Source of the DNA: a virus
Taxonomy: Duplodnaviria; Heunggongvirae; Uroviricota; Caudoviricetes
Reading direction: 5' to 3' (one strand)
DNA length: 64,000 bases
Virus record (IMG/VR): IMGVR_UViG_3300037346_000580
Location: 1-64,000 of that record
Shown: in pieces, positions 1-15,584 of the stretch
Layout: every line of letters starts with the position of its first letter
Numbering within the stretch: position 1 is the stretch's first letter
Translations under genes and position numbers: made by a program
The notes under the pieces: generated by a model
What the model was told of the DNA's origin: nothing
What the model saw: the letters and a program-made list of their open reading frames with translations, nothing else
Databases searched by the model: none

Positions 1-3000
1 TTCCTGATGATCCACTAGTACCTGATGATCCACTGGTTCCTCTAGTTCCCGAAGTTCCTGATGATCCACTAGTACCTGATGATCCGCTAGTTCCTCTAGT
101 TCCCGAAGTTCCTGATGATCCACTAGTTCCTGAAGTACCTGATGATCCACTAGTTCCTGATGATCCACTAGTTCCTGATGATCCACTGGTTCCTCTAGTT
201 CCCGAAGTTCCTGATGATCCACTAGTACCTGATGATCCACTAGTACCTGATGATCCGCTAGTTCCTCTAGTTCCCGAAGTTCCTGATGATCCACTAGTTC
301 CTGAAGTACCTGATGATCCACTAGTTCCTGATGATCCACTAGTTCCTGATGATCCACTGGTTCCTCTAGTTCCCGAAGTTCCTGATGATCCACTAGTACC
401 TGATGATCCACTGGTTCCTCTAGTTCCCGAAGTTCCTGATGATCCACTAGTTCCTGAAGTTCCTGATGATCCACTAGTTCCTGAAGTACCTGATGATCCA
501 CTAGTTCCTGAAGTTCCTGATGATCCACTAGTTCCTGAAGTTCCTGATGATCCACTGGTACCTGATGATCCACTAGTTCCTGATGATCCACTGGTTCCTC
601 TAGTTCCCGAAGTTCCCGATGATCCACTAGTTCCTGAAGTTCCTGATGATCCACTAGTTCCTGAAGTACCTGATGATCCACTAGTTCCTGAAGTACCTGA
701 TGATCCACTAGTTCCCGAAGTACCTGATGATCCACTAGTTCCTGATGATCCACTAGTTCCTGATGATCCACTAGTTCCCGAAGTTCCTGATGATCCACTA
801 GTTCCCGAAGTACCTGATGATCCACTAGTTCCCGAAGTTCCACTAGTTCCTGATGATCCACTAGTTCCTGAAGTTCCTGATGATCCACTAGTTCCTGAAG
901 TTCCTGATGATCCACTAGTTCCTGATGATCCACTAGTTCCTGATGATCCACTGGTTCCTCTAGTTCCCGAAGTTCCTGATGATCCACTAGTTCCTGAAGT
1001 TCCTGATGATCCACTAGTTCCTGAAGTACCTGATGATCCACTAGTTCCTGAAGTTCCTGATGATCCACTAGTTCCTGAAGTTCCTGATGATCCACTGGTA
1101 CCTGATGATCCACTAGTTCCTGATGATCCACTGGTTCCTCTAGTTCCCGAAGTTCCTGATGATCCACTAGTTCCTGAAGTACCTGATGATCCACTAGTTC
1201 CTGAAGTACCTGATGATCCACTAGTTCCTGAAGTACCTGATGATCCACTAGTTCCCGAAGTACCTGATGATCCACTAGTTCCTGATGATCCACTAGTACC
1301 TGATGATCCACTAGTTCCCGAAGTTCCTGATGATCCACTAGTTCCAGAAGTACCTGATGATCCACTAGTTCCTGAAGTTCCTGATGATCCACTAGTTCCC
1401 GAAGTACCTGATGATCCACTAGTACCTGATGATCCACTGGTTCCTCTAGTTCCTGAAGTTCCTGATGATCCACTAGTTCCTGATGATCCACTAGTTCCTG
1501 ATGATCCACTGGTTCCTCTAGTTCCCGAAGTTCCTGATGATCCACTAGTTCCTGAAGTTCCTGATGATCCACTAGTACCTGATGATCCACTAGTTCCCGA
1601 AGTTCCTGATGATCCACTAGTTCCTGAAGTTCCTGATGATCCACTAGTTCCTGAAGTTCCTGATGATCCACTAGTTCCCGAAGTACCTGATGATCCGCTA
1701 GTTCCCGAAGTCCCTGATGATCCACTAGTTCCTGATGATCCACTAGTACCTGATGATCCGCTAGTTCCTCTAGTTCCCGAAGTTCCTGATGATCCACTAG
1801 TTCCTGAAGTACCTGATGATCCGCTAGTTCCTGATGATCCACTAGTTCCTGATGATCCACTAGTTCCTGATGATCCACTAGTTCCTGAAGTTCCTGATGA
1901 TCCACTAGTTCCTGATGATCCACTAGTACCCGAAGTACCTGATGATCCACTAGTTCCTGATGATCCACTAGTACCCGAAGTACCTGATGATCCACTAGTA
2001 CCTGATGATCCGCTAGTTCCCGAAGTTCCTGATGATCCACTAGTTCCTGAAGTTCCTGATGATCCACTAGTTCCTGAAGTTCCACTAGTACCTGATGATC
2101 CGCTAGTTCCCGAAGTTCCTGATGATCCACTAGTTCCTGAAGTTCCTGATGATCCACTAGTTCCTGATGATCCACTAGTACCTGATGATCCACTAGTTCC
2201 TGAAGTTCCTGATGATCCACTAGTTCCTGAAGTTCCTGATGATCCACTGGTACCTGATGATCCACTAGTTCCTGATGATCCACTGGTTCCTCTAGTTCCT
2301 GAAGTTCCTGATGATCCACTAGTTCCTGAAGTTCCTGATGATCCACTAGTTCCTGAAGTTCCTGATGATCCACTAGTTCCTGAAGTACCTGATGATCCAC
2401 TAGTTCCTGATGATCCGCTAGTTCCCGAAGTACCTGATGATCCACTAGTTCCCGAAGTACCTGATGATCCACTAGTTCCTGAAGTACCTGATGATCCACT
2501 AGTTCCTGATGATCCACTAGTACCTGATGATCCACTAGTTCCTGAAGTTCCTGATGATCCACTGGTTCCTCTAGTTCCCGAAGTTCCTGATGATCCACTA
2601 GTTCCTGAAGTTCCTGATGATCCACTAGTTCCTGATGATCCACTAGTTCCTGATGATCCACTAGTTCCTGATGATCCACTAGTTCCTGATGATCCACTAG
2701 TTCCTGATGATCCACTAGTTCCTGATGATCCACTAGTTCCTGAAGTACCTGATGAACCACTAGTTCCTGAAGTTCCTGATGAACCACTAGTTCCTGAAGT
2801 TCCTGATGAACCACTAGTTCCTGAAGTACCTGATGATCCACTAGTTCCTGATGATCCACTAGTTCCTGAAGTACCTGATGATCCACTAGTTCCTGATGAT
2901 CCACTAGTACCTGATGATCCGCTAGTTCCTCTAGTTCCTGAAGTACCTGATGATCCGCTAGTTCCTGATGATCCACTAGTTCCTGATGATCCGCTAGTTC

Positions 3001-3395
3001 CTGATGATCCACTAGTTCCCGAAGTCCCTGATGATCCACTAGTACCTGATGATCCACTGGTACCTGATGATCCACTGGTACCTGATGATCCACTAGTTCC
3101 TGATGATCCACTAGTTCCTGATGATCCACTAGTTCCTGATGATCCACTAGTACCCGAAGTACCTGATGATCCACTAGTACCTGATGATCCGCTAGTTCCC
3201 GAAGTTCCTGATGATCCACCAGTTCCTGAAGTTCCTGATGATCCACTAGTTCCCGAAGTACCTGATGATCCACTAGTTCCCGAAGTTCCACTAGTTCCCG
3301 AAGTTCCACTAGTACCTGATGATCCACTAGTTCCTGAAGTTCCACTAGTTCCTGATGATCCACTAGTTCCCGATGATCCGCTAGTTCCTGATGTA
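1..3395. repeat. Tandem array of 9/18/27-bp units (cctgatgatccactagtt / cctgaagtt variants), about 3.4 kb. Unit length is always a multiple of 9, so the reading frame is preserved throughout.
   Basis: Direct reading. More than 150 near-identical units. Variants fall mostly at codon third positions. There are no unique spacers, so this is not a CRISPR array. Confidence 0.95.
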
Positions 3396-3529
3396 CCGCC
3401 ACCTCCACTTAGATTCGCCAGTAGCCACTGATATCCACTCCAAATCCATAATTGCTGGATTCCGTTATCATTGGATAAAAATGCTTGACCTATTCGGGGA
3501 GATTGTGGATATTGAGCCAATTTGGAAAT
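1..3529 (-). CDS. Collagen-like repeat protein (Gly-X-Y: GTS GSS GTS GTR ...). Partial: the C-terminus lies beyond the window start. The N-terminal non-repeat region reads ...LAQYPQSPRIGQAFLSNDNGIQQLWIWSGYQWLLANLSGGGG. There is no in-frame ATG after the upstream TAA at 3530-3532, so a TTG start at 3518-3520 is possible. The plus-strand frame 0 is also open (PDDPLVPEV repeats) and ends at TGA 3429-3431.
   Basis: Manual translation of both strands. Glycine falls at every third codon for more than 1100 codons on the minus strand. Codon third positions coincide on the two strands, so the coding strand cannot be assigned with certainty. Confidence 0.45.
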   Translation of the reverse strand, partial: MSKLAQYPQSPRIGQAFLSNDNGIQQLWIWSGYQWLLANLSGGGGTSGTSGSSGTSGSSGTSGTSGTSGSSGTSGTSGTSGTSGTSGSSGTSGTSGSSGTSGTGGSSGTSGTSGSSGTSGSSGTSGTSGSSGTSGSSGTSGSSGTSGSSGTSGSSGTSGSSGTSGSSGTSGTSGSSGTSGSSGTSGSSGTSGSSGTSGTRGTSGSSGTSGSSGTSGSSGTSGTSGSSGTSGSSGTSGTSGSSGTSGTSGSSGTSGTSGSSGTSGTSGSSGTSGSSGTSGSSGTSGSSGTSGSSGTSGSSGTSGSSGTSGTSGSSGTSGTRGTSGSSGTSGTSGSSGTSGSSGTSGSSGTSGTSGSSGTSGTSGSSGTSGTSGSSGTSGSSGTSGTSGSSGTSGTSGSSGTSGTSGSSGTSGTRGTSGSSGTSGSSGTSGSSGTSGTSGSSGTSGTSGSSGTSGSSGTSGSSGTSGTSGSSGTSGTSGSSGTSGTSGTSGSSGTSGTSGSSGTSGTSGSSGTSGSSGTSGTSGSSGTSGSSGTSGTSGSSGTSGSSGTSGTSGSSGTSGSSGTSGSSGTSGSSGTSGTSGSSGTSGTRGTSGSSGTSGSSGTSGSSGTSGTSGSSGTSGTSGSSGTSGTSGSSGTSGTSGSSGTSGTSGSSGTSGSSGTSGTSGSSGTSGTRGTSGSSGTSGSSGTSGSSGTSGTRGTSGSSGTSGSSGTSGTSGSSGTSGTSGSSGTSGTSGSSGTSGTSGSSGTSGSSGTSGSSGTSGTSGSSGTSGTSGSSGTSGTSGSSGTSGTSGSSGTSGTRGTSGSSGTSGSSGTSGSSGTSGTSGSSGTSGTSGSSGTSGTSGSSGTSGTSGSSGTSGTRGTSGSSGTSGSSGTSGSSGTSGTSGSSGTSGTSGSSGTSGTSGTSGSSGTSGTSGSSGTSGTSGSSGTSGSSGTSGSSGTSGTSGSSGTSGTSGSSGTSGTSGSSGTSGTSGSSGTSGTRGTSGSSGTSGSSGTSGSSGTSGTSGSSGTSGTSGSSGTSGTSGSSGTSGTSGSSGTSGTRGTSGSSGTSGSSGTSGTRGTSGSSGTSGSSGTSGSSGTSGTSGSSGTSGTRGTSGSSGTSGSSGTSGSSGTSGTRGTSGSSGTSGSSGTSGSSGTSGTSGSSGTSGTRGTSGSSGTSGSSGTSGTRGTSGSSGTSGSSG

Positions 3530-3587
3530 TTAATTTAATCTATATATCGTCATCCGAGTAATTCCATTTAGTGTATAGTTATAAATT

Positions 3588-4760
3588 TTAATGACAATTA
3601 ATGTCATTGTTAATTTTCAACGCTTCTACGACCTCGTAACCTTGGTCTCTACGTTTGTTTTTGGTAAGGTCGTCTAAACTCCTACGACCTTCTTTTAATA
3701 TATTTTGACTTGCTAATTGGTCACGAGAATTTATTGCTCCGCAACTTGCGCAAACCCACTCTCTATCAGAAAGTTTTAACTCTTTATTTTTTACTCCACA
3801 TCCACAAGTTTTTGAAGAAGCATAATAACGGTTAACTTTATGTACTGTTTTACCGTACCAATCTGCTTTGTAAGTTAACATAGCTGTAAACTTTGACCAA
3901 CTTGCATCTGAAATACTCTTTGACATTAACTTACTCTCTAACATATCTTTAACTCCTAAATCCTCTATAAAAATAGTATCATAGTTGTTAATTAGTTGTG
4001 TTGAATAATTGTGTAAAAAGAAATCTCTTTGGTTTGTTGTCTTTTGATAAAGTTTTGCAATTTTTAATTTACATTTATCTCTACGTTTACTTCCTTTTTC
4101 TTTTCTTGCGAAGTGTTGTTGTAATCTTTTTAATTTAGCTTGGTTTTTGCTAAAGAATTTTGGATTACTAATCTCAATGCCATCGGATTGGGTTGAAAAA
4201 ACTTTTACACCTAAATCTAATGCACATTCTTTACCTGTTTTTAATTTATAATTAATTTCTTGTTCCACTAAAACTGAAGCAAAGTATTGACCACTTGAAT
4301 TAACTGAAACAGTTACAGACATAAACTTACCAGCTAAAGGTCTATCTAAAACTATTTTAATTTTGCCTATTTTCTCTAATCTTATTTTACCATCTTTTAT
4401 AGAGAATTTTTGGTTAGGTAGTCTAAAGGACTGTTTACTCTGTTTTTTCTTAAAGTTGGGTCTGCTTATAGTTGACTTTCTTGTTTTATTAAAGTATTGT
4501 TTTTTAAACTCTTTAAAATCTATTTCTTTTTGTTGTAAAATAGAAGCAGAAACTTCTTTTAACCAACTTACCTCTTCTTGGTTTCTGAATTGTGTAGAAG
4601 TGAGGTAAACAGGCTTTGGATTTTTTTCTACATCATAAGAATTAAAAACAGATGTCATATAGTTCCAAAAATATCGTGAACAACCAAAACTTTTACTTAG
4701 TAAAGTTTCTTGTTCTTGATTAGGATATATTCTGAATTTATATGATTTTAATTTATTCAC
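3588..4760 (-). CDS. tnpB: TnpB (OrfB_IS605/Fanzor-like RNA-guided nuclease family), 390 aa.
   Basis: N-terminus YKFRIYPNQEQETLL. RuvC-I ALDLGV, RuvC-II FIEDLG, zinc finger CGCG...CASCG, RuvC-III RDQLASQNI. All catalytic residues are present. Confidence 0.8.
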   Translation of the reverse strand: MNKLKSYKFRIYPNQEQETLLSKSFGCSRYFWNYMTSVFNSYDVEKNPKPVYLTSTQFRNQEEVSWLKEVSASILQQKEIDFKEFKKQYFNKTRKSTISRPNFKKKQSKQSFRLPNQKFSIKDGKIRLEKIGKIKIVLDRPLAGKFMSVTVSVNSSGQYFASVLVEQEINYKLKTGKECALDLGVKVFSTQSDGIEISNPKFFSKNQAKLKRLQQHFARKEKGSKRRDKCKLKIAKLYQKTTNQRDFFLHNYSTQLINNYDTIFIEDLGVKDMLESKLMSKSISDASWSKFTAMLTYKADWYGKTVHKVNRYYASSKTCGCGVKNKELKLSDREWVCASCGAINSRDQLASQNILKEGRRSLDDLTKNKRRDQGYEVVEALKINNDINCH

Positions 4761-5325
4761 CTATTGAATTTTTAATAATTTGTTCTGTTAATCTTTTACT
4801 TCTTCTTCTACCGTATAACCTTGCAACAAATGATGTTATTATAGAAACAAAATCTTGCATTAAATCATCTTCATCATTTGTTTGAGGATTAATTATTTCA
4901 ATTTTTCTTCCTTCTAACGCTAAAAGCTTCTGTATATAGTTTGTTCCAAATCGAGCTAACCTGTCCTTATGTTCTACAACTATAAGATTAATTGTCTTAT
5001 CCAATAAAATAGATTCTAATTTTTTACGTTCATCATTTAATCCTGAACCTATTTCAACAACTACTTTTGAAACATTATAACCTTTGGCATTACAGTAGGA
5101 AATTAACCTTTCTTTTTGTCTATTTAAATTATCTTTATTTTCAGAACTAGACACTCTAGCATAGACAGCAACTTTTAAATTTAGGTGCGCTTCTTCAACA
5201 ATTTCTACAAAAACTCTTCCTGTACTACTTTTAATAATATCTAATTCTCCTTTTGCAATCATTCTCCATAAAGTTCTAACAGAAACCCCTGACATTTTTG
5301 CGTATTTTGATAATTTTACTTTCAT
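4753..5325 (-). CDS. tnpA: IS607-type serine recombinase/transposase TnpA (MerR-like HTH plus resolvase catalytic domain).
   Basis: N-terminal HTH (VSVRTLWRMIAKGEL). Catalytic motif VYARVSSSENKD typical of serine recombinases. Confidence 0.75.
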   Translation of the reverse strand: MKVKLSKYAKMSGVSVRTLWRMIAKGELDIIKSSTGRVFVEIVEEAHLNLKVAVYARVSSSENKDNLNRQKERLISYCNAKGYNVSKVVVEIGSGLNDERKKLESILLDKTINLIVVEHKDRLARFGTNYIQKLLALEGRKIEIINPQTNDEDDLMQDFVSIITSFVARLYGRRRSKRLTEQIIKNSIGE

Positions 5326-5385
5326 ATATTTACTATTTCAATAACTGTGCCAAAGTACTTGATTGTCTCTAATTGTCATTAATTT

Positions 5386-6750
5386 TTATAAACTAATTAA
5401 ATATCTTATATAATTACCAATGCTGTCTTGTGTATTGTTCCAAGATAACCAAGTAGTACCATCTGTTGAATATTCCCAAGTTCCATACGCTGAAGTATCT
5501 ATGGTGTCACTAAAAATAAGTAAATTAGTTGATGAATCAAATAATCTCAGTTTTAAATCCGGTATATTGCCAGACCATGAGCTCACTTGTTGCCATGTAA
5601 ATATTTTGCTAGATGCTGATGATTTTGCAAGAGATGGTAAATAATGAGAATCTTGAGATCCGTCTTCATATATGCAACCAACACCATAAATTCTTGTAGG
5701 TACACAAACTTCACCTAAAATATCAAGTTCAAACATAAATTGAATATATTGTCCAGGTATATTTCCAGATATATCGCCATTTACACCAACTTCGGTCCAT
5801 GAACCGGTGTTATCATCAATACCAGAAGTTCTAAAATAAACTTTGTATGCCTCAGGTTGAAAACCTAGAGCATAAGATCCTAAATATTCTGCGTTATCTA
5901 CATATACTCTATACAGCTTTGTCGCGTCTGTCGTTGGAATCTTAGGCGCTATAATTCTTTGATTTGTTGATGATGCATAAAAAGCATCGGCAGCCATAGG
6001 AAAAGCAAAAAACCAGCTAAATTGTGTTATTGTTGATACCGGAATAGCAAACATATATCCACCCGCAGTCCAGATAGATAACGTGGATTGTGGGAATAAA
6101 CCGTCAGATGCACCTGGTGGGGTAGCTGATAATTTTTTTCTGTTTGTGTTAGTACCTACTATTTTATCAAATGGAATTGAACTAGAAGGATCATAATCAC
6201 CAACATAAACCCCTACTCGCCCTGCTCCTGTAGTTATAAAAATTCTATCCAATGTCTCGCTATAATCTATTTGAGCTAATGAATTTGTCAGTGTAAAAAC
6301 TGCATTGATTCCGCCAGGTGGAATCTCAATCATTGAGTCCGATATCCAACTAGTTGAGGATGCAATTATATCTGATACTTTAACTCGGTAAATTCTAGTA
6401 GATGTAACAAACCATAAGCACTTTACTCCATTAAATGGCCCATGATTTAAGGTAAATATTCTACCATTATTTAATTGAGAAATTAACCCAATTACTACAG
6501 CAGTAGCTGTTTTAAATTCAAATGCGCTTACACTAATTCCACCAACCACTGTCAATGGAGCACGTAAATTAAATTTATGAATTCTAGCATTTACTGTATT
6601 ATCTGCATTTAGAAAATATATGTCATGTCTACCATTATTTACAAAGTCGTCACTTCCTAATCCAGCACCTATTGTATAAAAACCAGTAAATACGGTATGT
6701 GTGCCGGATTGAGAGACATCCTCCTGCCATATCAACTGCCGATGCAGCAT
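5386..6750 (-). CDS. Putative tail fibre / receptor-binding protein (454 aa, rich in S/T/G/N/Y).
   Basis: Composition and length are typical of phage distal fibre domains. It is adjacent to the collagen-like repeat gene. No specific motif was recognised. Confidence 0.4.
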   Translation of the reverse strand: MLHRQLIWQEDVSQSGTHTVFTGFYTIGAGLGSDDFVNNGRHDIYFLNADNTVNARIHKFNLRAPLTVVGGISVSAFEFKTATAVVIGLISQLNNGRIFTLNHGPFNGVKCLWFVTSTRIYRVKVSDIIASSTSWISDSMIEIPPGGINAVFTLTNSLAQIDYSETLDRIFITTGAGRVGVYVGDYDPSSSIPFDKIVGTNTNRKKLSATPPGASDGLFPQSTLSIWTAGGYMFAIPVSTITQFSWFFAFPMAADAFYASSTNQRIIAPKIPTTDATKLYRVYVDNAEYLGSYALGFQPEAYKVYFRTSGIDDNTGSWTEVGVNGDISGNIPGQYIQFMFELDILGEVCVPTRIYGVGCIYEDGSQDSHYLPSLAKSSASSKIFTWQQVSSWSGNIPDLKLRLFDSSTNLLIFSDTIDTSAYGTWEYSTDGTTWLSWNNTQDSIGNYIRYLISL

Positions 6751-6850
6751 CCTGTACTATCTTATATGTTGTCTCCCATTTATAACCATCCTGATCTCCG
6801 AATATCAACGTGTTGTTATCCCATGGGAAATATACTCTATTCTCTGACAT
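6650..6850 (-). CDS. Small ORF (66 aa) overlapping the 5' 100 nt of the fibre-like gene in another frame. It may be the true N-terminus joined by a frameshift at the T-run ggttttta.
   Basis: The ORF starts at the first ATG after a divergent intergenic region. Frame B has a TAG two codons upstream of its ATG at 6750. Confidence 0.35.
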   Translation of the reverse strand: MSENRVYFPWDNNTLIFGDQDGYKWETTYKIVQDAASAVDMAGGCLSIRHTYRIYWFLYNRCWIRK

Positions 6851-6892
6851 TTACTGATTTTTATATCAGATATATATTCAAAAAAATAAATC

Positions 6893-7423
6893 ATGGAATT
6901 TAAAGGCCTAGCAGAAATACTTGATAAATTTACATTTGCCCAAAGAATATTAGCTCTTTTAATGTTACTTATGACCATAGTCCTTATTACACTTGGTCCA
7001 AAATTAATAGATGCATTAACGGTAAGCAATACTGAATGTATAGCAGAAACAAAAAGACAGAGCATAAGAATCTCTTATCTGGGGAAGGTTGTGGATACAC
7101 TTGATATAAAAATAATATCAAATCAGAGAAAGTTTACTAATGAGATAGCAAGAAGGGAATCTGAGTTTATAGCAATGCTGGACGAGCTTAAATTTGATAT
7201 AGATAAATCAAAAACAAAAAGGAACCCAAAAATACATCAGCTGGAGAAAAGAGAATATGATGGTAATGACGTGGTTGGTAGCGGTTCGGATCAACCGTTA
7301 GCAATGGAGAGAATACAAGAACCTGTGAGAGCGGATGAAAATGGGATTAACTCAAAAAAGGTCGATGTTATAGTAAAGAAGATAGAAACACTTAAAAAGA
7401 AAGTTAAAGATGATGCACATTAA
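6893..7423 (+). CDS. Membrane-anchored protein with an N-terminal TM helix (ILALLMLLMTIVLITLG), 176 aa.
   Basis: ORF plus hydrophobic segment. Confidence 0.5.
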   Translation: MEFKGLAEILDKFTFAQRILALLMLLMTIVLITLGPKLIDALTVSNTECIAETKRQSIRISYLGKVVDTLDIKIISNQRKFTNEIARRESEFIAMLDELKFDIDKSKTKRNPKIHQLEKREYDGNDVVGSGSDQPLAMERIQEPVRADENGINSKKVDVIVKKIETLKKKVKDDAH

Positions 7424-8111
7424 AATGTTTGAAAATTTTGAGCGAAATAATTCATTATTTTCTATTTGCGATAAACTTATAGGTGATTCCGATATATGGA
7501 AAAGAAATAGGGACAAGGTAAAGTCACTTGATCCTGATTTTGAACTAAGACAGATAAACGTTCCTGGCGTGGAGGCAAGCTTCGATGCAAATGAATCAAG
7601 ATCAAATAATATAATTATAGAAGTTGGACCAGGTAATGTCGACGATTCCACAATGGCGCACGAGCTTATTCATGCATTGCAGTTTATGGAGAGAGGTGAA
7701 TTAGATATATTTACGCAGGATGCAACAAGGGAGTTTTTAGTATTATCAGATGATAACGTTTGGGAATATTTTATGCTTGCAATCTATATGAGTGATGAAC
7801 TAGAAGCAGAAGCACAAAAGGCGGAGCTTAAATTCGGTTTACAGAAAACCCAAAAGGAAGTGATTGATTGGATAAAAATGAACACCCCTGAAAAAATAGC
7901 TAAACAAATATCCTTATTGGTACCAAATGACAATGAATTTGAACTTGAAAGCTTTGATGAATTTCCGGATCTATGGGTTAGCGTTTATTTAAACTATACA
8001 GATATTGGAATTGATAAATATCTGGAAGAACTAAAGGATAAATCATTATTGGAATTTGTTGCTTATTATTATCTAAAATTTAGCGCATTTATTAAATATA
8101 TGGAATCATAA
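7410..8111 (+). CDS. HExxH zinc-metallopeptidase-like protein (motif MAHELIHALQF).
   Basis: HELIH motif, ImmA/IrrE-like context. It overlaps the upstream gene by 14 nt. Confidence 0.5.
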   Translation: MMHIKMFENFERNNSLFSICDKLIGDSDIWKRNRDKVKSLDPDFELRQINVPGVEASFDANESRSNNIIIEVGPGNVDDSTMAHELIHALQFMERGELDIFTQDATREFLVLSDDNVWEYFMLAIYMSDELEAEAQKAELKFGLQKTQKEVIDWIKMNTPEKIAKQISLLVPNDNEFELESFDEFPDLWVSVYLNYTDIGIDKYLEELKDKSLLEFVAYYYLKFSAFIKYMES

Positions 8112-8143
8112 AAAAAGCCTGAGCATTACACTCAGGCTTTTTT
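8109..8143. terminator. Bidirectional rho-independent terminator (A7-GCCTGAGC...GCTCAGGC-T7) between convergent genes.
   Basis: Perfect 8-bp stem flanked by A-run and T-run. Confidence 0.7.
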
Positions 8144-8155
8144 TATTAACTCCGA

Positions 8156-8866
8156 TTATTTGTTAAACACAACGGTAATAGTAGCACCTGTTCTTTTAGC
8201 AATTCTTGAAAGTGCATCAAAATCTGTTTCTGTTATAGGTTGTACTTCAGAAATTATTTTTTCTTTCTTATCAGCAGGAACAGAAGCAACCTTCTCCACC
8301 ACTGGTAAATTTTTATTTTTAACTTTAGCTGCTCTCATTTTTTCCATCCTCAATAACATAGCAGCTTTCTTGTCATCAACCTTATGATCTTCAATTTTTT
8401 GGGCTGCTGCCTCCAATTTTTTCAATGTTGATTTTCTGATAGTAACTGCTGCTTCAGTTCTGTTTAAAATCATGCCGATAAATTTAGCAGAATTTCCCTG
8501 CGCATATAATGATAATAATTCTTTATCATCCTCACTAGACCATGATGATCTTGGTGACTTAACCTTTACTTGATGCTGGATTGGGGTTCTAGAGATCACT
8601 CTGATCGGTAACTCGTTTCTTTTTTTCTTTTTGTTTGTAGAAATTGATTTAGGAACATCAATTTCCCTACCCTTAGATGATTTCAAACGAACATCAACAT
8701 GCAGTGTATGTTTTCGTGTTGTTACTGCCATAATAGTTCGTCCCAATATTTTTGCAATCTCAGCGCCAGTAGCTCCACCTCTTGCCATTTTGATTAATGT
8801 TGAATCATCCGCAGTTGACCAGCCTCTTCTGTTAGAAGGTGCTTTAGGATTTCTTTTAATTTCCAT
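8156..8866 (-). CDS. DNA-binding protein with two HTH repeats (GATGAEIAKILGRTIMAVTTRKHTL and SAKFIGMILNRTEAAVTIRKSTL).
   Basis: Internal duplicated HTH-like segments. It is basic. It is preceded by the TTAATTG repeat leader and the conserved promoter. Confidence 0.5.
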   Translation of the reverse strand: MEIKRNPKAPSNRRGWSTADDSTLIKMARGGATGAEIAKILGRTIMAVTTRKHTLHVDVRLKSSKGREIDVPKSISTNKKKKRNELPIRVISRTPIQHQVKVKSPRSSWSSEDDKELLSLYAQGNSAKFIGMILNRTEAAVTIRKSTLKKLEAAAQKIEDHKVDDKKAAMLLRMEKMRAAKVKNKNLPVVEKVASVPADKKEKIISEVQPITETDFDALSRIAKRTGATITVVFNK

Positions 8867-8906
8867 ATTTGTTAATTGTTAATTGTTAATTGTTATAATT
8901 ACAATA

Positions 8907-8940
8907 CAAATATATGAAATAATCCCGAGATAAAAAAATT
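8907..8940 (-). promoter_or_regulatory. Conserved phage promoter motif, instance 1. On the minus strand it reads T7-ATCTCGGGATT-N-TTCATATATTTG-TATTGT.
   Basis: One of about 15 copies of CAAATATA(T)G...TTCGAATAAAAAAA (plus-strand reading) lying upstream of minus-strand genes. Confidence 0.55.
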
Positions 8941-8985
8941 ATTTTACATAAAGTTTCACGATATATAGATAAAATATATTAATTT

Positions 8986-9345
8986 ATGGACAATTATATA
9001 AAACTATATTCAGATTTCATTAATGAAGCTGATAAAAAAGGGGAAAGCTTTGAAGATTTTGCAAAAACCAGATTGACTGGAGCTGCGAAAATAGCCGAAG
9101 CTGCTAAAGAGAAGGGCGGTGATGCTCTTCTAACTTATCACCATTTTAGGGTTAAATTACCGGTTTATGAAAAAGCTGGTGGTGGAAATTTTGATCCTGT
9201 TGAAGCAAAGGATGAGATGGAAGCTCTAGTTAAAGCCTTGGTTAAAGGAACTGCTGGTTCTATAAAACTCGAACAGACTGAATTTCAAAAGCTCGTTGGC
9301 CTCATAGAGGTCTTTGGAGAATTACTAATAAGAAAAGGTGCTTAA
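8986..9345 (+). CDS. Hypothetical protein (119 aa).
   Basis: ORF. A GATATATA box lies about 25 nt upstream, as for the other plus-strand genes. Confidence 0.45.
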   Translation: MDNYIKLYSDFINEADKKGESFEDFAKTRLTGAAKIAEAAKEKGGDALLTYHHFRVKLPVYEKAGGGNFDPVEAKDEMEALVKALVKGTAGSIKLEQTEFQKLVGLIEVFGELLIRKGA

Positions 9346-9647
9346 TTAAGCACCTTTTCTGTTTCATTCAATTTGTTGTAATATTTCATCCTAATTGACT
9401 TGTATCCATGCCCCTGATAGAATATTCTATTTCTAATAACATTCTTTGCATCGTTATTATAATTGTCAATATACCAATCTATATTGATGTTTGATTTGGA
9501 TTTGATTTTCCCATTAACCTCGTTGAATACTCCTTCCCCGATCTCCTCGATTTTAAATATTCCTTTCTCACCCCTAATAAATGCATGCTTAGAAGTTATT
9601 CTTAAGTAGCTAACTACATCTTGTCTGTTTTGTTCTTTTGTTTTCAT
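9342..9647 (-). CDS. Hypothetical protein (101 aa).
   Basis: ORF. Confidence 0.4.
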   Translation of the reverse strand: MKTKEQNRQDVVSYLRITSKHAFIRGEKGIFKIEEIGEGVFNEVNGKIKSKSNINIDWYIDNYNNDAKNVIRNRIFYQGHGYKSIRMKYYNKLNETEKVLN

Positions 9648-9664
9648 GATTTTTTTATTTTTAA

Positions 9665-10288
9665 TTAATTATTTTTTAGTATCCATTGATAGAATCCAGG
9701 TTTTATATTGTTGTCTAATTTTTCCCATAGTCCTGACAGCTGGACGGATTCAGTCATGTATATGTTTGACCCCTGGGATTTACCATTTTCATCAAATATC
9801 TCCCATGTGTAATAGACATGCATACCCCTTTCAGTGTCTACCTTTTTATTCTGAAACCATGTCCATCCTTTTCTTGAATTTTCTATCATCTTCTGTTTTG
9901 CATTCTCAAATAACCGATCATTTATTTCCTTGTTTGAATCGAATGCTTCTCTTGCTTGTTTCAATATTCTTCCCTTTCTCTCGTTTCTTTGTTCATCGTT
10001 ACAATAACAAGCAAGTTCAAATTTAAAAAGTTTCTCAATGTCCTCCCATTTTGAATCTCTTGAATATTTATTTTCCACAAACCCATGGACATCTTCACAA
10101 TAAACATCAACCTTATATCCCTCTGCTGAATAAACATATTCACCTTTATCGTTTATGTAGGCATAAGGTCCATCCCAATAACCTTCTTTTTCTATTGCTG
10201 CTACTGGTATTCCTCCCTCCATTCTGATGTGTCCATTACCCTCAGGATCTGCTTCCCGTAACATCTTTATAAATTCGTTCGTTGTCAT
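9665..10288 (-). CDS. Hypothetical protein (207 aa).
   Basis: ORF. Confidence 0.5.
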   Translation of the reverse strand: MTTNEFIKMLREADPEGNGHIRMEGGIPVAAIEKEGYWDGPYAYINDKGEYVYSAEGYKVDVYCEDVHGFVENKYSRDSKWEDIEKLFKFELACYCNDEQRNERKGRILKQAREAFDSNKEINDRLFENAKQKMIENSRKGWTWFQNKKVDTERGMHVYYTWEIFDENGKSQGSNIYMTESVQLSGLWEKLDNNIKPGFYQWILKNN

Positions 10289-10380
10289 AATTTTTAATTT
10301 ATTTTTATTAATTTATTGTTTGTTTCGCTTCATATAAAGCTCGCTGCTTGATTATTTTTATCCTCTTATACAAATGTATC

Positions 10381-10734
10381 TTATACCTCAAATTCATTCT
10401 TTAGTGTCTCGTATTGTTTCTTTCTCTCTGCTTTTTTTGCCTCCTCGTACCTTGCCCTATCTTCCCTTTGTTTTTGTTCCCTTTTGATTCTTTCCTCCTC
10501 CTCCTTGGTCTTTCTAATCTGTATATGCTCATCAAGATCTATTGTTAGATCGTTAGCGTTTATCGTCTCTGATTCATATTCGGTTCCTCCATAGGATACA
10601 CTCCATGAACGGCTGCAGTAAAACTCTCCATCGGATAGAAGTTCTATAGAATCTGGTTTGTAGCCAGTTTTTGCAATAAATATCTGTTCCACTCTGTCGT
10701 GGATTGTGATTAGTTGTTCACCTGTTATTTTCAT
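10381..10734 (-). CDS. Hypothetical protein with a charged coiled-coil C-terminus (117 aa).
   Basis: ORF. The stop overlaps the start of the upstream gene. Confidence 0.45.
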   Translation of the reverse strand: MKITGEQLITIHDRVEQIFIAKTGYKPDSIELLSDGEFYCSRSWSVSYGGTEYESETINANDLTIDLDEHIQIRKTKEEEERIKREQKQREDRARYEEAKKAERKKQYETLKNEFEV

Positions 10735-11159
10735 TATTTTTGTTTTTTAAGTTCTAATTCTTTTACCCTTCCCATTATAATGCCTCTATATTTTTTATGT
10801 AATTCATATGGGATATTCATTACTATATTGTGCCCCTTAGAGAATATGTGGTTTATATAGAGATCAACATGCTCACTTGTGAATTCGGTGAATATTTTAT
10901 TACTTGGTTTATACCAGCTGTCCTCTCTTGCATAAGCATAAACATAATAGAGTTTTCCTGCTTCCTTTTGATATTGAATGTATATTAGTAACAAATCCCA
11001 TAGTTGATCTGGTGTTAATAAACCATGCTCTTCCAGAACAAGCATTGTTGTTGCTAATCTTCCCATCCTGTTGCCTAAATTTGTATGCTTTCCATAGGCT
11101 CTTTTTGTACTCAGCTTTTTAAGAGAGTCAAAGTTTCTTGTTTTTAGAATTCCTTTCAT
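10734..11159 (-). CDS. Hypothetical protein (141 aa).
   Basis: ORF. ATGA overlap with the ORF upstream. Confidence 0.5.
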   Translation of the reverse strand: MKGILKTRNFDSLKKLSTKRAYGKHTNLGNRMGRLATTMLVLEEHGLLTPDQLWDLLLIYIQYQKEAGKLYYVYAYAREDSWYKPSNKIFTEFTSEHVDLYINHIFSKGHNIVMNIPYELHKKYRGIIMGRVKELELKKQK

Positions 11160-11492
11160 GTCGTTTGTAGATTTTTTAGAGATAACGAAAGGTGGGACAA
11201 TGATTTTCTAACCTCTGGATTGCCAAAAAAGCATGCAGAAGTATAGGCGTCAACATCAGGCTCAAAAAACAATGATGCCTGTGTAACGTGTCTGAATTTT
11301 TCGTAAATTTTAATTAAATGTGCTTCTGATTTTGCAGAGAGACAAATTATAGAATTTGTTGTCTCTTTCCATTCTTTGAACTTTGTGGGATGTTCATATG
11401 CAAAATCTGCAAGGCTATGACAAGCCTGTGGTAATTGATAGCCTTCTGAGTGAAGGTCTGCTCTGGTAACTATTACCAGTTTCGTTTCCTGA
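11157..11492 (-). CDS. Candidate PTH2-like peptidyl-tRNA hydrolase ORF of about 110 codons with no in-frame ATG (...KLVIVTRADLHSEGYQLPQACHSLADFA...). Either a non-ATG start or a decayed gene.
   Basis: Manual translation. Pattern V-I-V-x-R-x-DL....G....Q.CHS resembles the PTH2 N-terminal motif. Open from TAG 11493-11495 to a TGA overlapping the ATG at 11159. Confidence 0.3.
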
Positions 11493-11730
11493 AATTTGTT
11501 AATCTAAGTCATTTTCTTAATTTATTTTATTATTATACATTATTTTTTGTTTTTGTTTCATTTTTTATTGGTTATATTCTTCAGGCCTTATACCGTCAGG
11601 GAAAGATAACTTTGCATTTGTTAAATCAATGGAAGAATAAACGTCGGTAATCTCCTTCCTTGTTCTGCTGCTTATATTTAAGCAAACCTCATAAACCCAT
11701 TCATCGAACGCCATATTTAATTTATTTTAG

Positions 11731-11845
11731 TGGTCAGAACAGGATTCGAACCTGTATCTCCAATGTCTTACCAAAGGCGAGTCTACCCGATGCGTAAAGC
11801 AATTCCTCTACCTGACTTAGCTTCTAACAGATTATCAGTTCTGAC
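11731..11845 (-). tRNA. tRNA-like gene A (T-arm ACAGG-TTCGAAT-CCTGT, acceptor 3' strand TTCTGAC). The matching 5' acceptor GTCAGAA lies 115 nt upstream, too far for a canonical tRNA.
   Basis: Reverse complement contains GGTTCGAATCC and an acceptor-stem match. No clean cloverleaf could be built by eye. Confidence 0.4.
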
Positions 11846-11904
11846 GCTTTACACAGCTTAGCTATTTTTGGGTTGCCCCTTACTCTCCGCTATTTGAGTT
11901 TTGT

Positions 11905-11985
11905 GATCCCCACCGGGCTCGAACCGGATACGCTGAGTTTAGAAGTCAGTTTGACGCCATGTCAATTAAGTTTAGGGACCTTTTT
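11905..11985 (-). tRNA. tRNA-like gene B (about 77 nt; 5' GGTCCCT pairs with 3' GGGGATC using two G-U pairs; T-loop TTCGAGC).
   Basis: Acceptor/T-arm complementarity. D and anticodon arms are not convincingly resolved. Confidence 0.4.
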
Positions 11986-12076
11986 CTTTACTTAGTTATT
12001 ATTAAAAATATAACAATGAATATTATTCCTATTATTCCTATTATTGCTTTTCTCATTTTATTTTATTTTTAATTAC

Positions 12077-12118
12077 AAGACAAATATAAGAAATTATTTT
12101 TAAATAAAAAAATAATTT
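12077..12118 (-). promoter_or_regulatory. Conserved promoter motif instance (CAAATATAAG...TAAATAAAAAAA).
   Basis: Motif family member, followed by hairpin terminator 12120-12153. Confidence 0.45.
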
Positions 12119-12119
12119 G

Positions 12120-12153
12120 AAAAAAATCGGGATTTTTCAATCCCGATTTCTCT
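12120..12153. terminator. Hairpin terminator (ATCGGGATT-TTTCA-ATCCCGAT) with a flanking A-run.
   Basis: 8-bp inverted repeat. Confidence 0.55.
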
Positions 12154-12155
12154 AT

Positions 12156-12977
12156 TTATTTAATATCCTCTATACCGCTACCGAATACTTGCTTCGTTTT
12201 TGTTGAGGTGAATCCAGGTTTATAATCAATCCGTGGTCTATTCAAAATTTTATTATATAGATTATTAGGCAAAGTCTGCAGCAATATGTTATTAGCTTTT
12301 GCAATATTTTGTGACTCAACCTCTAGAGCTAAATATCCGGCTCTTTGAGTTTCTACAAATTGTGATAGATCAACATAGAAATTAGAGAAATCCCCATAAG
12401 GTACTGGCTGATTTTCTTGTAGCCATTTCCATGTAAGTTTCTCGCCATCTCGTCTTCCGTCCATGATCAATTTGGTTACCTCTATGAATGTCTCTTTGTT
12501 TTCGATTAGAACATTATGCTTAAGTGTATATGATTTCCACATATTGTCATAATATGCTTCCTTCTCCTGACTTAATTGTGCATAATCATTTTGATATAAT
12601 ACAGTTTGGTTATAGATGACTTTAGTGTCCTTATAAAACCTGCTTGCTCCAATGACTAATAGCAATAGAACCAATAAACCAGCCACACCGCCGAACGGAT
12701 TTTTATCGCCATCTTTAGGTTCTTTGAAATCCCATTCTAAATTCTGATCCAAAGATTTTCTCATTAGAATAACGATATAGACAAATAAGCCTACTAGAAA
12801 AGCAATGTTGAAAGTTGTATGCATTGCTGAAAAACTTAAGGATCCGTTGTCCTTTACTGTGTCACCTGGGAACTGTACCGTCCACATGAAGCCAAATGCC
12901 AAAAGCGAGATGACTGCGCCAATCATCTTGGAGATGAATTCTGACTTACTTAATTTACCTTTTTTAAAGATACTCAT
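12156..12977 (-). CDS. N-terminally membrane-anchored protein (273 aa), paralogous to 19080..19637 (YDNMWKSYT / YDKMWKTIS; WKWLQENQP / MKWVQESNP).
   Basis: ORF, TM helix, shared motifs with the second copy. Confidence 0.55.
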   Translation of the reverse strand: MSIFKKGKLSKSEFISKMIGAVISLLAFGFMWTVQFPGDTVKDNGSLSFSAMHTTFNIAFLVGLFVYIVILMRKSLDQNLEWDFKEPKDGDKNPFGGVAGLLVLLLLVIGASRFYKDTKVIYNQTVLYQNDYAQLSQEKEAYYDNMWKSYTLKHNVLIENKETFIEVTKLIMDGRRDGEKLTWKWLQENQPVPYGDFSNFYVDLSQFVETQRAGYLALEVESQNIAKANNILLQTLPNNLYNKILNRPRIDYKPGFTSTKTKQVFGSGIEDIK

Positions 12978-13003
12978 AGAATTAATTGTTAATTGTTAAT
13001 TGT

Positions 13004-14251: not shown

Positions 14252-14323
14252 TTTTGTTTATTTTTTAATTACATGGAAAATATATAAAACATTTTCGATA
14301 TAAAAAAATTATTTTAATATTTT

Positions 14324-14722: not shown

Positions 14723-14748
14723 ATTTTTTCCATTATTTCTATTTGTGG

Positions 14749-14973: not shown

Positions 14974-14975
14974 AA

Positions 14976-15542: not shown

Positions 15543-15544
15543 AT

Positions 15545-15580: not shown

Positions 15581-15584
15581 AAAT

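What the first reader, a model, noticed from the sequence alone, without database searches (positions are those of the whole stretch)
1..3529. More than 3.4 kb of perfect triplet-periodic repeat, open on both strands; minus-strand Gly-X-Y collagen-like protein without an ATG start
The array is built from 9-nt modules and reads GTS/GSS/GTR (Gly every third residue for more than 1100 codons) on the minus strand. On the plus strand it reads PDDPLV/PEV (Pro every third residue) and ends cleanly at TGA 3429-3431. Codon third positions coincide on the two strands, so codon-bias arguments fail. D-to-E-type variants (gat to gaa) are silent only in the minus reading, which mildly favours the collagen-like gene. 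That frame has no ATG; the first sense codons are ATT...TTG and then the IS element follows. It is either a huge collagen-like fibre protein disrupted or re-started by the IS, or a plus-strand Pro-rich repeat protein.
Basis: seen in the sequence. Interest (0 to 1): 0.55.

Follow-up and report, generated by a model that had tools for sequence, protein, structure and literature searches.

The report
Giant collagen-like phage fibre gene
The repeat is the 5' part of an intact minus-strand gene for a very long collagen-like fibre protein of a large phage; it starts at a conserved TTG codon, the neighbouring insertion element does not break it, and the open plus-strand frame is a by-product.

Summary
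Window 5..3406 encodes 378 uninterrupted Gly-X-Y triplets on the minus strand (GTS 223, GSS 138, GTR 15) and runs off the window edge. The minus strand is the coding strand. The frame continues into a 38-codon N-terminal module that evolves under purifying selection among three orthologous genes (11-14 synonymous against 2-3 non-synonymous codon differences). This module heads many collagen-like phage fibre proteins. The missing ATG is explained: TTG 3520..3518 aligns with Met1 of homologues ("MA-x-F/Y-P-x-x-P-x-IGQAF") and is conserved in two relatives that have no insertion element nearby. Those relatives also share a 28-nt leader and an in-frame TAA 12 nt upstream. The IS607-type element (about 3576..5400) interrupts the 3' end of the gene upstream, not the collagen gene. 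The open plus-strand frame is automatic, because a G/T/S/R-only protein cannot create antisense stops in that frame; it is equally open in all but one of 22 collagen segments of seven related genes (a single stop in one short segment). The most likely product is a trimeric, probably glycosylated, collagen-like virion fibre at least 0.32 µm long if extended. The kind is known; the length and the proline-free composition are extreme. The repeat copy number is unverified.

The parts
2..3520 (-). Collagen-like fibre gene, 5' part. It is open at its 3' end: it runs off the window start, so its C-terminal domains are not in the window.
   Evidence: Single open frame from TTG 3520. Pfam Collagen E=5.5e-155. 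PHROG tail-fibre families and phrog_3420 match from profile position 5. Orthologues L021 (1832 aa, complete) and L022.
3518..3520 (-). TTG start codon
   Evidence: It is the only canonical start codon in the frame. It aligns with Met1 of P0121, P0122 and P0123, with L190/L191, which have ATG-GCT-CAA there, and with P0290, P0295 and P0320. TTG is conserved at the same place in L021 and L022.
3407..3517 (-). N-terminal non-collagen module (AQYPQSPRIGQAFLSNDNGIQQLWIWSGYQWLLANLS). Proposed role: trimerisation and registration module, possibly foldon-like.
   Evidence: Codon differences among window, L021 and L022 are 11/2, 13/3 and 14/3 (synonymous/non-synonymous). A profile of the module finds 2347 representative proteins at E<=1e-3; the module precedes collagen runs and often occurs several times per protein. 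AF2 predicts an extended segment plus a beta-hairpin, pLDDT 83-91. Similarity to the foldon is marginal.
5..3406 (-). Uninterrupted Gly-X-Y array of 378 triplets: GTS 223, GSS 138, GTR 15, GGG 1, GTG 1
   Evidence: Arg occurs only at Y, always in the context GTS-GTR-GTS-GSS, as in L021.
3521..3548 (-). Conserved 28-nt leader upstream of the start, containing the in-frame stop TAA at 3530..3532. Possible promoter or leader motif ACGATATATAGATTAAAT.
   Evidence: Conserved in window, L021 and L022, whereas the sequence further upstream is unrelated. The same motif, with one mismatch, lies 10 nt upstream of ATG 8986.
3..3431 (+). Antisense open frame (PDDPLV/PEV...PPPPLRFASSH*). By-product, not a gene.
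   Evidence: The antisense frame that shares wobble positions has 0 stops in 21 of 22 collagen segments of seven related genes, with one stop in one short L028 segment. In the non-repeat part it has stops and mostly non-synonymous differences. No Pfam match.
3576..5400 (-). IS607-family insertion element, adjacent to the gene and not part of it. TnpB is at 3588..4760 and the serine-recombinase TnpA at 4753..5325.
   Evidence: Pfam OrfB_IS605, Cas12f1-like_TNB, HTH_OrfB and Resolvase. Inverted repeats at 3579-3600 and 5370-5391. Homology to the 790-aa family stops exactly at 5401. The ends are approximate, to within about 3 nt.
5386..6750 (-). Upstream 454-aa cassette gene whose 3' end is cut by the IS. 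The remnant of its end lies at about 3549..3575.
   Evidence: 288 homologues, mostly 700-795 aa, end in ...GNYIRYTATS..VRALLTQA; the window ORF ends ...GNYIRYLISL*.

Best explanation
Window 2..3520 (minus strand) is the 5' part of an intact gene for a collagen-like virion fibre of a large T4-like (jumbo-type) phage, probably from fresh water. Translation starts at TTG 3520..3518.

Proposed mechanism. A 38-residue N-terminal module comes first. I infer that it brings three chains together in register and/or anchors the fibre to the virion. It is followed by at least 378 uninterrupted Gly-X-Y triplets made only of Gly, Thr and Ser, with occasional Arg at Y. I infer that these fold into a homotrimeric collagen-type triple helix, about 0.32 µm long if fully extended, and that Ser/Thr are probably O-glycosylated. 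By analogy with the complete orthologue L021, the missing C-terminal part should carry globular binding domains.

Origin of the array. It grew by duplication of blocks of 9-nt units. Close relatives whose N-terminal module is 35-36 of 38 residues identical have first collagen segments of only about 70-100 triplets.

Other features. The plus-strand frame and the second minus-strand frame are compositional by-products. The IS607 element sits in the neighbouring upstream gene and leaves the fibre gene, its start codon and its conserved leader untouched.

Shown: the coding strand, the start codon, the family, the position of the IS, and the by-product nature of the antisense frame. Inferred: trimer and triple helix, glycosylation, location on the virion, adhesion function, and the true repeat number.
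For: Coding strand.
- Pfam Collagen E=5.5e-155 on the minus frame; nothing on the plus frame.
- 18 DNA 9-mers collapse to 5 peptide triplets. Ser at Y is encoded by both AGY and TCN codon families, which read as Leu versus Glu on the plus strand.
- N-terminal 38 codons: 11/2, 13/3 and 14/3 synonymous/non-synonymous codon differences among window, L021 and L022. All antisense frames there have stops or mostly non-synonymous changes.
- Nearly all neighbouring genes are on the minus strand, and GC skew is negative throughout.

Start codon.
- TTG aligns with Met1 of P0121-P0123, of L190/L191 and of P0290, P0295 and P0320.
- TTG, a TAA at -12 and a 28-nt leader are conserved in L021 and L022.

Fibre identity.
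- PHROG tail-fibre families match.
- L190 has the same N-terminal module plus collagen plus Peptidase_S74, the intramolecular chaperone of trimeric fibres, E=1.9e-14.
- L021 shows alternating collagen stalks and globular domains.
- Domains homologous to the L021 C-terminus co-occur with Collagen and S74.

Glycosylation. A 1273-aa GT4 + GT9/TibC-like + methyltransferase protein lies two genes downstream in L021, after a 191-aa ORF.

Triple helix.
- Zero interruptions in 378 triplets.
- The Gly-X-Y register is kept in diverged segments of L021.
- Arg occurs only at Y, in the same context, in the window and L021, and only at Y in five other arrays.

IS position.

By-product frame: 0 antisense stops in 21 of 22 related collagen segments, and one stop in one short L028 segment.

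Independent assembly: Logan contig L001 is identical to window 3344..16750.
Against: - Nothing here shows expression, a trimer, a triple helix or a place on the virion.
- The composition (no Pro, almost no charged residues) is unlike characterised bacterial and viral collagens. In PMC3368898 Table 4, viruses have 22% Pro and 35% Asp/Glu at X. It resembles flexible Gly/Ser linkers, so the stability of a triple helix is uncertain.
- Repeat copy number is unverified. The Logan assembly stops 62 nt into the array. The array contains exact internal repeats up to 218 nt. The window starts inside the array.
- The C-terminal end of this gene was not found, so intactness of the whole ORF is not shown.
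- Within this array the Gly wobble before Ser is almost invariant (GGA 134, GGT 3) but is variable before Thr (GGA 183, GGT 54). Taken alone this would fit plus-strand D/E conservation. Related arrays vary freely at this site, so I attribute it to recent amplification of one unit.
- The IS lies only about 28 nt upstream of the conserved leader and could still alter transcription.
Confidence: 0.85

Rival explanations
1. The plus strand is coding: a Pro-rich repeat protein (PDDPLV/PEV)n that ends at TGA 3429-3431.
For: - The frame is open for more than 1140 codons and ends cleanly.
- 15 AGT-to-AGA changes are silent only in this reading.
- The Gly wobble before Ser is nearly invariant in this array, which keeps Asp.
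Against: - No family match.
- The frame would read against almost all neighbouring genes.
- It is open by necessity, because antisense stops in it need Tyr, His or Gln codons on the sense strand. It is stop-free in 21 of 22 collagen segments of seven related genes (one stop in one short L028 segment). In L021 it is chopped up wherever globular domains interrupt the collagen.
- In relatives the D/E position toggles freely.
- Its last 12 codons overlap a region where substitutions are synonymous only in the minus frame.
- Leu, Glu and Asp alternate at one position in the plus reading, where the minus reading always has Ser.
Confidence: 0.02
2. The collagen gene is a pseudogene or a 5'-truncated remnant: the IS607 insertion removed its true start, or it is re-started from the IS.
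For: There is no ATG. The IS ends about 56 nt upstream of the first start codon. The frame is continuous with the remnant of the upstream gene, apart from one TAA.
Against: - L021 and L022 have no IS, have unrelated upstream genes (LamG; a 428-aa ORF), and have the same TTG, the same TAA at -12 and the same 28-nt leader.
- Homologues begin at exactly this residue with Met.
- The IS breakpoints lie inside the 454-aa gene.
Confidence: 0.03
3. The gene is real, but the array length is an assembly artefact. The true array would be much shorter (collapsed or expanded cycles in a de Bruijn graph) or simply of unknown length.
For: The Logan assembly of SRR12911269 breaks 62 nt into the array. The window begins inside the array. 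Only 43% of 55-mer positions carry a unique 55-mer. The closest relatives have 70-116 triplets per segment.
Against: - 90% of 127-mers and 100% of 250-mers are unique, so paired or long reads could resolve the array.
- The array has an orderly, non-cyclic mosaic of variants.
- Independent contigs from other samples carry 957-1273 uninterrupted triplets of the same type.
Confidence: 0.2
4. The G/T/S array is translated but is not a triple helix. It would be a disordered, heavily O-glycosylated, mucin-like spacer or brush.
For: There is no Pro and almost no charged residues. The composition is that of flexible Gly-Ser linkers. A large glycosyltransferase gene lies two genes downstream of the orthologue.
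Against: - Strict Gly every third residue over 1134 residues.
- The same register is kept in diverged segments of L021 and of 147 family representatives with varied X and Y residues.
- Arg is confined to Y.
- Family members end in the S74 chaperone typical of trimeric fibres.
- The array is preceded by a module that elsewhere always precedes collagen runs.
Confidence: 0.15

Closest known systems
Prophage and phage collagen-like tail-fibre proteins, such as E. coli O157 EPclA/EPclB (PMC3368898), and the PHROG tail-fibre families phrog_5073, 6320 and 8745
   Same: A phage-encoded protein with a non-collagen N-terminal part, a Gly-X-Y stalk and globular or chaperone C-terminal domains. EPclA is an experimentally shown trimer with a collagen CD signal.
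   Different: EPcl stalks are short (whole molecule about 60 nm) and rich in Pro and charged residues. Their flanking domains are PfN, PCoil and PfC. Here the stalk has at least 378 triplets, has no Pro or acidic residues, and is headed by a different N-terminal module.
Bacillus BclA and other Bcl exosporium collagen-like proteins
   Same: Thr-rich, glycosylated collagen-like filaments in which the number of repeats sets the filament length. The collagen-like regions reported span 27-1158 residues (PMC8968730), so this array (at least 1134 residues) is at the top of that range.
   Different: BclA uses GPT-type triplets with Pro at X, is a bacterial spore protein and has a C1q-like C-terminal domain. 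No sequence relationship exists outside the Gly-X-Y pattern.
SPP1 gp12 collagen-like capsid decoration protein (cited in PMC7602432)
   Same: A small phage collagen-like trimer on the virion surface. It is comparable in size to the 102-aa family member P0121.
   Different: gp12 has only a few Gly-X-Y repeats. No homology was tested or seen here. The location of the present protein on the virion is unknown.
T4 fibritin foldon
   Same: The first half of the N-terminal module (YPQSPRIGQAFLSND) resembles the foldon (IPEAPRDGQAYVRKDG). AF2 predicts the same order of an extended segment followed by a beta-hairpin. From my own knowledge, foldon is the classic tag used to trimerise engineered collagen peptides.
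   Different: Statistics are marginal: E=0.051 and 0.38 against the PDB, hhalign probability 72-75% over 14-16 columns. The module is longer, with an extra strand. It lies N-terminal to collagen, not C-terminal to a coiled coil. There was no structural hit.
Hairy jumbo phages (Tenacibaculum phage PTm1/PTm5 head fibres; Atu_ph07, CBB and Y3 whiskers), described in PMC7824862 and PMC13282480
   Same: Large myovirus-type phages with long flexible appendages thought to aid adsorption. PTm1 is among the few cultured phages with a detectable, distant match to this window's gp23-like ORF.
   Different: No gene-to-fibre assignment links those appendages to collagen-like proteins in the texts read. The relationship to PTm1 is very distant (22% identity).

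Membership tests
Collagen triple-helix repeat proteins (Pfam PF01391) | Gly at every third residue over many consecutive triplets, scoring above the family's gathering threshold | tested here: met
   378 of 378 triplets. PF01391 scores 503.7 bits against a cut-off of 27.2, E=5.5e-155.
Collagen triple-helix repeat proteins (Pfam PF01391) | Three chains actually form a triple helix | not testable with these tools
   This needs CD, melting or EM of the protein. Indirect support: the register is conserved in diverged relatives, Arg occurs only at Y, and a trimer chaperone domain is present in family member L190.
Phage tail-fibre / virion-fibre proteins with collagen-like stalks | Encoded in a phage genome | tested here: met
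   The window has a gp23-like ORF and T4-type auxiliary genes. Relatives of the neighbouring gene lie next to gp13, sheath, gp23 and prohead-protease genes. Distant matches go to huge phages and to Tenacibaculum phage PTm1.
Phage tail-fibre / virion-fibre proteins with collagen-like stalks | Non-collagen terminal domains for attachment and for receptor binding or trimerisation | tested here: inconclusive
   The N-terminal module is present and conserved. The C-terminus is outside the window and was not recovered. Orthologue L021 has four globular domains, and L190 has Peptidase_S74.
Phage tail-fibre / virion-fibre proteins with collagen-like stalks | Presence in the virion | not testable with these tools
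   This needs virion proteomics or immuno-EM.
N-terminal 'MA-x-F/Y-P-x-x-P-x-x-G-Q/D-x-F/Y ... W-x-G-x-x-W' module family (phrog_3420-like) | The module lies at the very N-terminus, or directly before a collagen run, with invariant P5, P8, G29 and W32 | tested here: met
   Alignments A2, A4 and A5. phrog_3420 matches residues 3-113 to profile positions 5-111. 2347 representatives at E<=1e-3.
T4 fibritin foldon | Significant sequence or structure similarity to the 27-residue foldon | tested here: inconclusive
   1rfo_A scores E=0.051 with the narrow profile and 0.38 with the broad profile. hhalign probability is 72-75% over 14-16 columns. Foldseek finds nothing below E=2.
IS607-family insertion sequence (the neighbouring element) | A serine-recombinase TnpA followed by TnpB (OrfB_IS605 plus a zinc-ribbon TNB domain) in an element of about 1.7-2.5 kb | tested here: met
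   Resolvase E=5.2e-19. OrfB_IS605, Cas12f1-like_TNB and HTH_OrfB at E=1e-14 to 6e-23. The element is about 1825 bp between inverted repeats.

The most novel reading that the evidence does not exclude
A freshwater jumbo-type phage carries filaments made of a proline-free, charge-free (Gly-Thr-Ser / Gly-Ser-Ser)n collagen triple helix. The filament would be at least 0.32 µm long, longer than vertebrate type I collagen and than the phage's own tail fibres. Sister arrays in other metagenomic contigs reach about 1 µm (about 3600-3800 residues). On this reading the helix is nucleated by a natural foldon-like module and stabilised by O-glycosylation and sparse Arg at Y, and its length changes several-fold between near-identical phages through repeat expansion. 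That would be a new regime of triple-helix stabilisation and a natural 'foldon-collagen' design.
Probability: 0.3. Interest if true: 0.6.

Novelty: new member of a known kind. Interest (0 to 1): 0.35.

Why it matters
The strand, the start codon and the role of the IS are all explained by a non-ATG (TTG) start, an IS in the neighbouring gene and an unavoidable antisense open frame. This is useful as a worked example for annotating low-complexity triplet repeats.

Two things remain of interest.
- Collagen-like stalks made only of Gly, Thr, Ser and occasional Arg, with hundreds to more than a thousand uninterrupted triplets, occur in uncultured freshwater phages. This one is about 2.5 times longer than the longest run among 147 family representatives. 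If such stalks fold as triple helices they would extend what is known about collagen stability and about how far phage appendages reach.
- The short module that precedes each collagen run is a candidate natural trimerisation and registration domain, possibly related to the T4 foldon.

Tried and rejected
- Near-identity DNA search of 3400..9400 against the phage collection found nothing. A protein search with the N-terminal module against phages also found nothing.
- Exact-pattern scans of IMG/VR with the junction and with the repeat consensus found nothing. A related-loci scan of IMG/VR with the 454-aa protein found nothing.
- I could not recover the window's own source contig beyond base 1, nor the 3' end of the gene. 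The metagenome scan returned 16 other loci but not the source. A search with the L021 C-terminal domain gave no orthologue from the same sample.
- Classical synonymous/non-synonymous counting inside the array was rejected as a discriminator. Wobble positions coincide on the two strands, variants are amplified by block duplication, and the two informative classes point in opposite directions (3 D/E units against 15 S/R units).
- Read-through or fusion with the upstream gene (same frame, a single TAA) was rejected. The TAA is conserved in L021 and L022, which have unrelated upstream genes.
- TnpB relatives did not identify the host. The best cellular match is 53% (a Methylococcaceae MAG), and the best viral matches are 70%.
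- Rfam found nothing in 1..7000.
- Sigma-70-type promoter and terminator scans were at background level.
- Foldon homology gave marginal sequence statistics and no structural match. I keep it as a lead only.
- A PDB search with a profile that included collagen columns was swamped by animal collagens.


Full report
**1. The observation**

The region is a real tandem array. TRF reports it at 1..3393 with periods 18, 27 and 180.

Translation shows three open frames across it:
- plus frame 3, reading PDDPLV/PEV;
- a minus frame reading G-T-S / G-S-S;
- a second minus frame reading ELVDHQ.

In the Gly frame, which starts after the TAA at 3532..3530, 378 of 378 consecutive triplets begin with Gly. 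They run from 3406 down to 5, and the array continues off the window edge.

It is built from 18 different 9-mers that encode only five peptide triplets: GTS 223, GSS 138, GTR 15, GGG 1 and GTG 1. GSS units are always single and are separated by one to three GTS/GTR units.

The wobble positions of the two frames coincide, since both fall on coordinates congruent to 2 mod 3.

The three GAT-to-GAA variants exist. So do 15 AGT-to-AGA changes that are silent only on the plus strand. That argument therefore does not discriminate between the strands.

**2. Genomic setting**

The window has about 34% GC and a negative GC skew throughout. Almost all long ORFs are on the minus strand.

It encodes a gp23-like ORF, NAPRTase, a PRPP-synthetase-like protein, a Thg1-like protein, an RNA ligase, an M42 peptidase and an SPFH protein.

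The gp23-like ORF matches only huge uncultured phages (LR7565xx) and Tenacibaculum phage PTm1, and only distantly.

A Logan contig from run SRR12911269 is identical to window 3344..16750 and stops 62 nt into the array.

**3. Which strand codes**

(a) Pfam Collagen matches the minus frame at E=5.5e-155. The plus frame matches nothing.

(b) Ser at the Y position is encoded by both the AGY and the TCN codon families. These are one amino acid on the minus strand, but Leu versus Glu on the plus strand.

(c) The minus frame continues upstream of the repeat into a 38-codon non-repeat module. A metagenome scan with a 27-mer from the array recovered two orthologues, L021 (Ga0247722_10000120) and L022, whose module is 35-36 of 38 residues identical.
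- Codon differences among the three genes are 11, 13 and 14 synonymous against 2, 3 and 3 non-synonymous in the minus frame.
- Every antisense frame there has stops or mainly non-synonymous changes.

(d) The antisense frame that shares wobble positions can only acquire a stop where the sense strand has a Tyr, His or Gln codon. A G/T/S/R protein therefore leaves it open automatically.
- It has no stop in the window array and in 21 of 22 collagen segments of seven related genes; one short L028 segment has a single stop.
- In L021 it is broken wherever globular domains interrupt the collagen.

(e) One pattern could suggest plus-strand constraint. In this array the Gly wobble before Ser is GGA 134 against GGT 3, but before Thr it is GGA 183 against GGT 54. 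This pattern is absent from relatives (for example A 470, T 186, C 83, G 19 in L019). It most likely reflects recent amplification of one unit.

**4. The start codon**

The only canonical start in the frame is TTG 3520..3518.

Database homologues of the module begin exactly there with Met:
- P0121 MARFPDNPKIGQAF..., P0122 MAEFPQNPRIGQAF... and P0123 MARFPQAPKIGQAF...;
- L190/L191 from IMG/VR, which read ATG-GCT-CAA, MAQFPSNPRIGQAF;
- P0290, P0295 and P0320.

The window reads (TTG)AQYPQSPRIGQAF.

L021 and L022 also use TTG at this position. All three genes share a 28-nt leader, GATATATAGATTAAATTAAA-TT-CAAA. The leader contains an in-frame TAA 12 nt upstream of the start. Beyond the leader the three sequences are unrelated.

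phrog_3420 aligns residues 3-113 to profile positions 5-111.

The absence of an ATG is therefore explained, and an N-terminal extension or fusion is excluded.

**5. The IS element**

TnpB (3588..4760) and a serine-recombinase TnpA (4753..5325) define an IS607-type element. It has inverted repeats at 3579-3600 and 5370-5391.

The 454-aa ORF upstream (5386..6750) belongs to a family of 700-795-aa proteins that end ...GNYIRYTATS..VRALLTQA. Homology to the window stops exactly at 5401, after GNYIRY, and the ORF then runs into the IS as LISL*.

The IS therefore cuts the last 15-19 codons of that gene. It ends about 56 nt before the fibre gene's TTG and about 28 nt before the conserved leader.

Flank comparison with L021:
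- L021 1..875 matches window 7732..6858 at 90% nucleotide identity.
- L021 from 2868 onward matches window from 3548 downward.
- Between these points L021 carries a LamG protein and an 88-aa gene.
- L022 carries yet other genes there, and neither relative has an IS.

The segment 3549..6857 is therefore a variable cassette slot.

**6. What the protein is**

L021's complete product (1832 aa) has the N-terminal module, then collagen segments of about 80-116 triplets separated by globular domains of about 140-170 residues, then a 437-residue C-terminal region. It matches PHROG tail-fibre families.

Parts of its C-terminal region recur in proteins that carry Collagen plus Peptidase_S74.

L190 has the same N-terminal module and 245 triplets, and ends in Peptidase_S74 (E=1.9e-14). 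This is the intramolecular chaperone of trimeric phage fibres and spikes.

Two genes downstream of the L021 gene, after a 191-aa ORF, lies a 1273-aa protein with GT4, GT9/TibC-like and methyltransferase domains. This points to glycosylation of the Ser/Thr-rich stalk.

In the window array Arg occurs only at Y, always in the context GTS-GTR-GTS-GSS. L021 has the same context, and five other arrays also confine Arg to Y. From my own knowledge, Arg at Y is the most helix-stabilising non-imino residue.

I therefore take the product to be a homotrimeric collagen-type fibre. At 0.286 nm per residue, 1134 residues would span about 324 nm.

**7. The N-terminal module**

A profile of the module finds 2347 cluster representatives at E<=1e-3.

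In 147 of them there are 207 copies of the module, usually several per protein and each placed just before a collagen run. Only 7 copies are N-terminal.

It resembles the T4 fibritin foldon: PQSPRIGQAFLSND against PEAPRDGQAYVRKD. The tests were as follows.
- The narrow profile's foldon-region matches in the PDB are all to foldon-containing chains; the isolated foldon 1rfo_A scores E=0.051.
- hhalign gives 72-75% probability over 14-16 columns.
- A broader profile lowers the foldon hit to E=0.38.
- AF2 predicts an extended segment, then a hairpin and a third strand, with pLDDT 83-91.
- Foldseek finds nothing significant.

This is a lead, not a result.

**8. How unusual it is**

Collagen-like phage fibres are known (PMC3368898; SPP1 gp12 in PMC7602432). 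Bacillus Bcl collagen regions of 27-1158 residues are on record (PMC8968730).

Among the 147 representatives of this module family, the longest uninterrupted run has a median of 19 triplets and a maximum of 153. The window has at least 378.

Three freshwater contigs (L014, L019, L029) carry 957-1273 uninterrupted triplets of the same G-S/T-S type. One of these ORFs is at least 4093 aa long.

The composition (X = Thr or Ser in nearly all triplets, Y = Ser in about 96%) is far from that tabulated for viral collagens: 22% Pro and 35% Asp/Glu at X (PMC3368898).

**9. Caveats**

- The copy number is unverified. The array has exact internal repeats up to 218 nt, and 90% of its 127-mers are unique. 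One assembler stopped at its edge.
- The gene's 3' end was not recovered.
- Expression, trimerisation, glycosylation and location on the virion are all inferred.

**10. Verdict**

The collagen reading is right. The IS-disruption idea and the plus-strand alternative are wrong.

This is a new, extreme member of a known kind of phage fibre protein.

Noticed in passing
window 3549..6857; L021 876..2867; L022 (stored orientation) 2376..5387: The segment just upstream of the fibre gene is a replaceable cassette slot. The flanks are about 90% identical between the window and L021. The content differs: a 454-aa beta-rich protein plus IS607 in the window, a LamG protein plus an 88-aa gene in L021, and a 428-aa ORF plus a 570-aa ORF (weak F5/8 type C hit) in L022. 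All look like possible binding proteins, so they may be exchangeable partners of the fibre.
   Followed up: partly
window 5386..6750 (-): The 454-aa ORF corresponds only to the C-terminal ~57% (from about residue 340 of 795) of a conserved 700-795-aa family. That family lies next to neck, sheath and capsid genes in T4-like jumbo-phage contigs. The N-terminal ~340 residues are nowhere in the window. The AF2 model (pLDDT 86.5) is all-beta, and its best PDB matches are podovirus tail nozzle proteins, weakly (T7 6r21_a, E=4.4e-5, TM 0.26).
   Followed up: partly
window ~3576..5400: An IS607-type element (serine recombinase plus TnpB) is inserted 15-19 codons before the end of the 454-aa gene. It has 22-nt imperfect inverted repeats at 3579-3600 and 5370-5391. 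TnpB relatives reach 70% identity in IMG/VR viral contigs but only 53% in cellular genomes. No Rfam RNA was detected, and the omega-RNA guide was not analysed.
   Followed up: partly
window 3533..3548 (-) and 8960..8975 (+): The 16-mer GATATATAGAT[T/A]AAAT, preceded by AC in both cases, lies 12 nt upstream of TTG 3520 and 10 nt upstream of ATG 8986. It is conserved upstream of the fibre gene in L021, and with two mismatches in L022. It may be a phage promoter or leader element.
   Followed up: partly
L021 9174..12995: A 1273-aa multidomain protein (GT4 glycosyltransferase, GT9/TibC-like heptosyltransferase, methyltransferase) lies two genes downstream of the orthologous collagen-like gene, after a 191-aa ORF. 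It is a candidate fibre-glycosylating enzyme. No homologue is present in the window.
   Followed up: partly
L019 3..12284; L029 1..11663; L014 1..8858: Freshwater metagenome contigs carry giant ORFs with 1199, 1273 and 957 uninterrupted Gly-(Ser/Thr)-(Ser/Ala) triplets. L019 is at least 4093 aa and has a 495-residue non-collagen C-terminus with no Pfam match. All run into contig ends.
   Followed up: partly
L009 4908..5216 (P0121) and L190 10001..13234: In related small phages the same gene slot, after an endolysin/CHAP gene and a small DUF3008-like gene, holds a fibre gene with the same N-terminal module. It is 102 aa in one phage and 1077 aa in another, where it has a Peptidase_S74 end. This is a ten-fold length difference at one locus.
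   Followed up: partly
proteins P0180, P0184, P0217, P0240 and others: The roughly 35-residue module 'FPxSPxxG(D/Q)x(F/Y)...(Y/W)x(W/Y)xGxxW' is repeated up to 8 times in the proteins examined locally, each copy before a short collagen run. It has no Pfam model. Weak sequence matches go to the foldon, to designed 'Cake' propellers and to a coronavirus S2 hairpin.
   Followed up: partly
window 22610..23500 (-): A 296-aa ORF matches only the C-terminal two thirds of the Gp23 major-capsid-protein profile (positions 129-367 of 376). It could be a truncated or divergent capsid or vertex paralogue.
   Followed up: no
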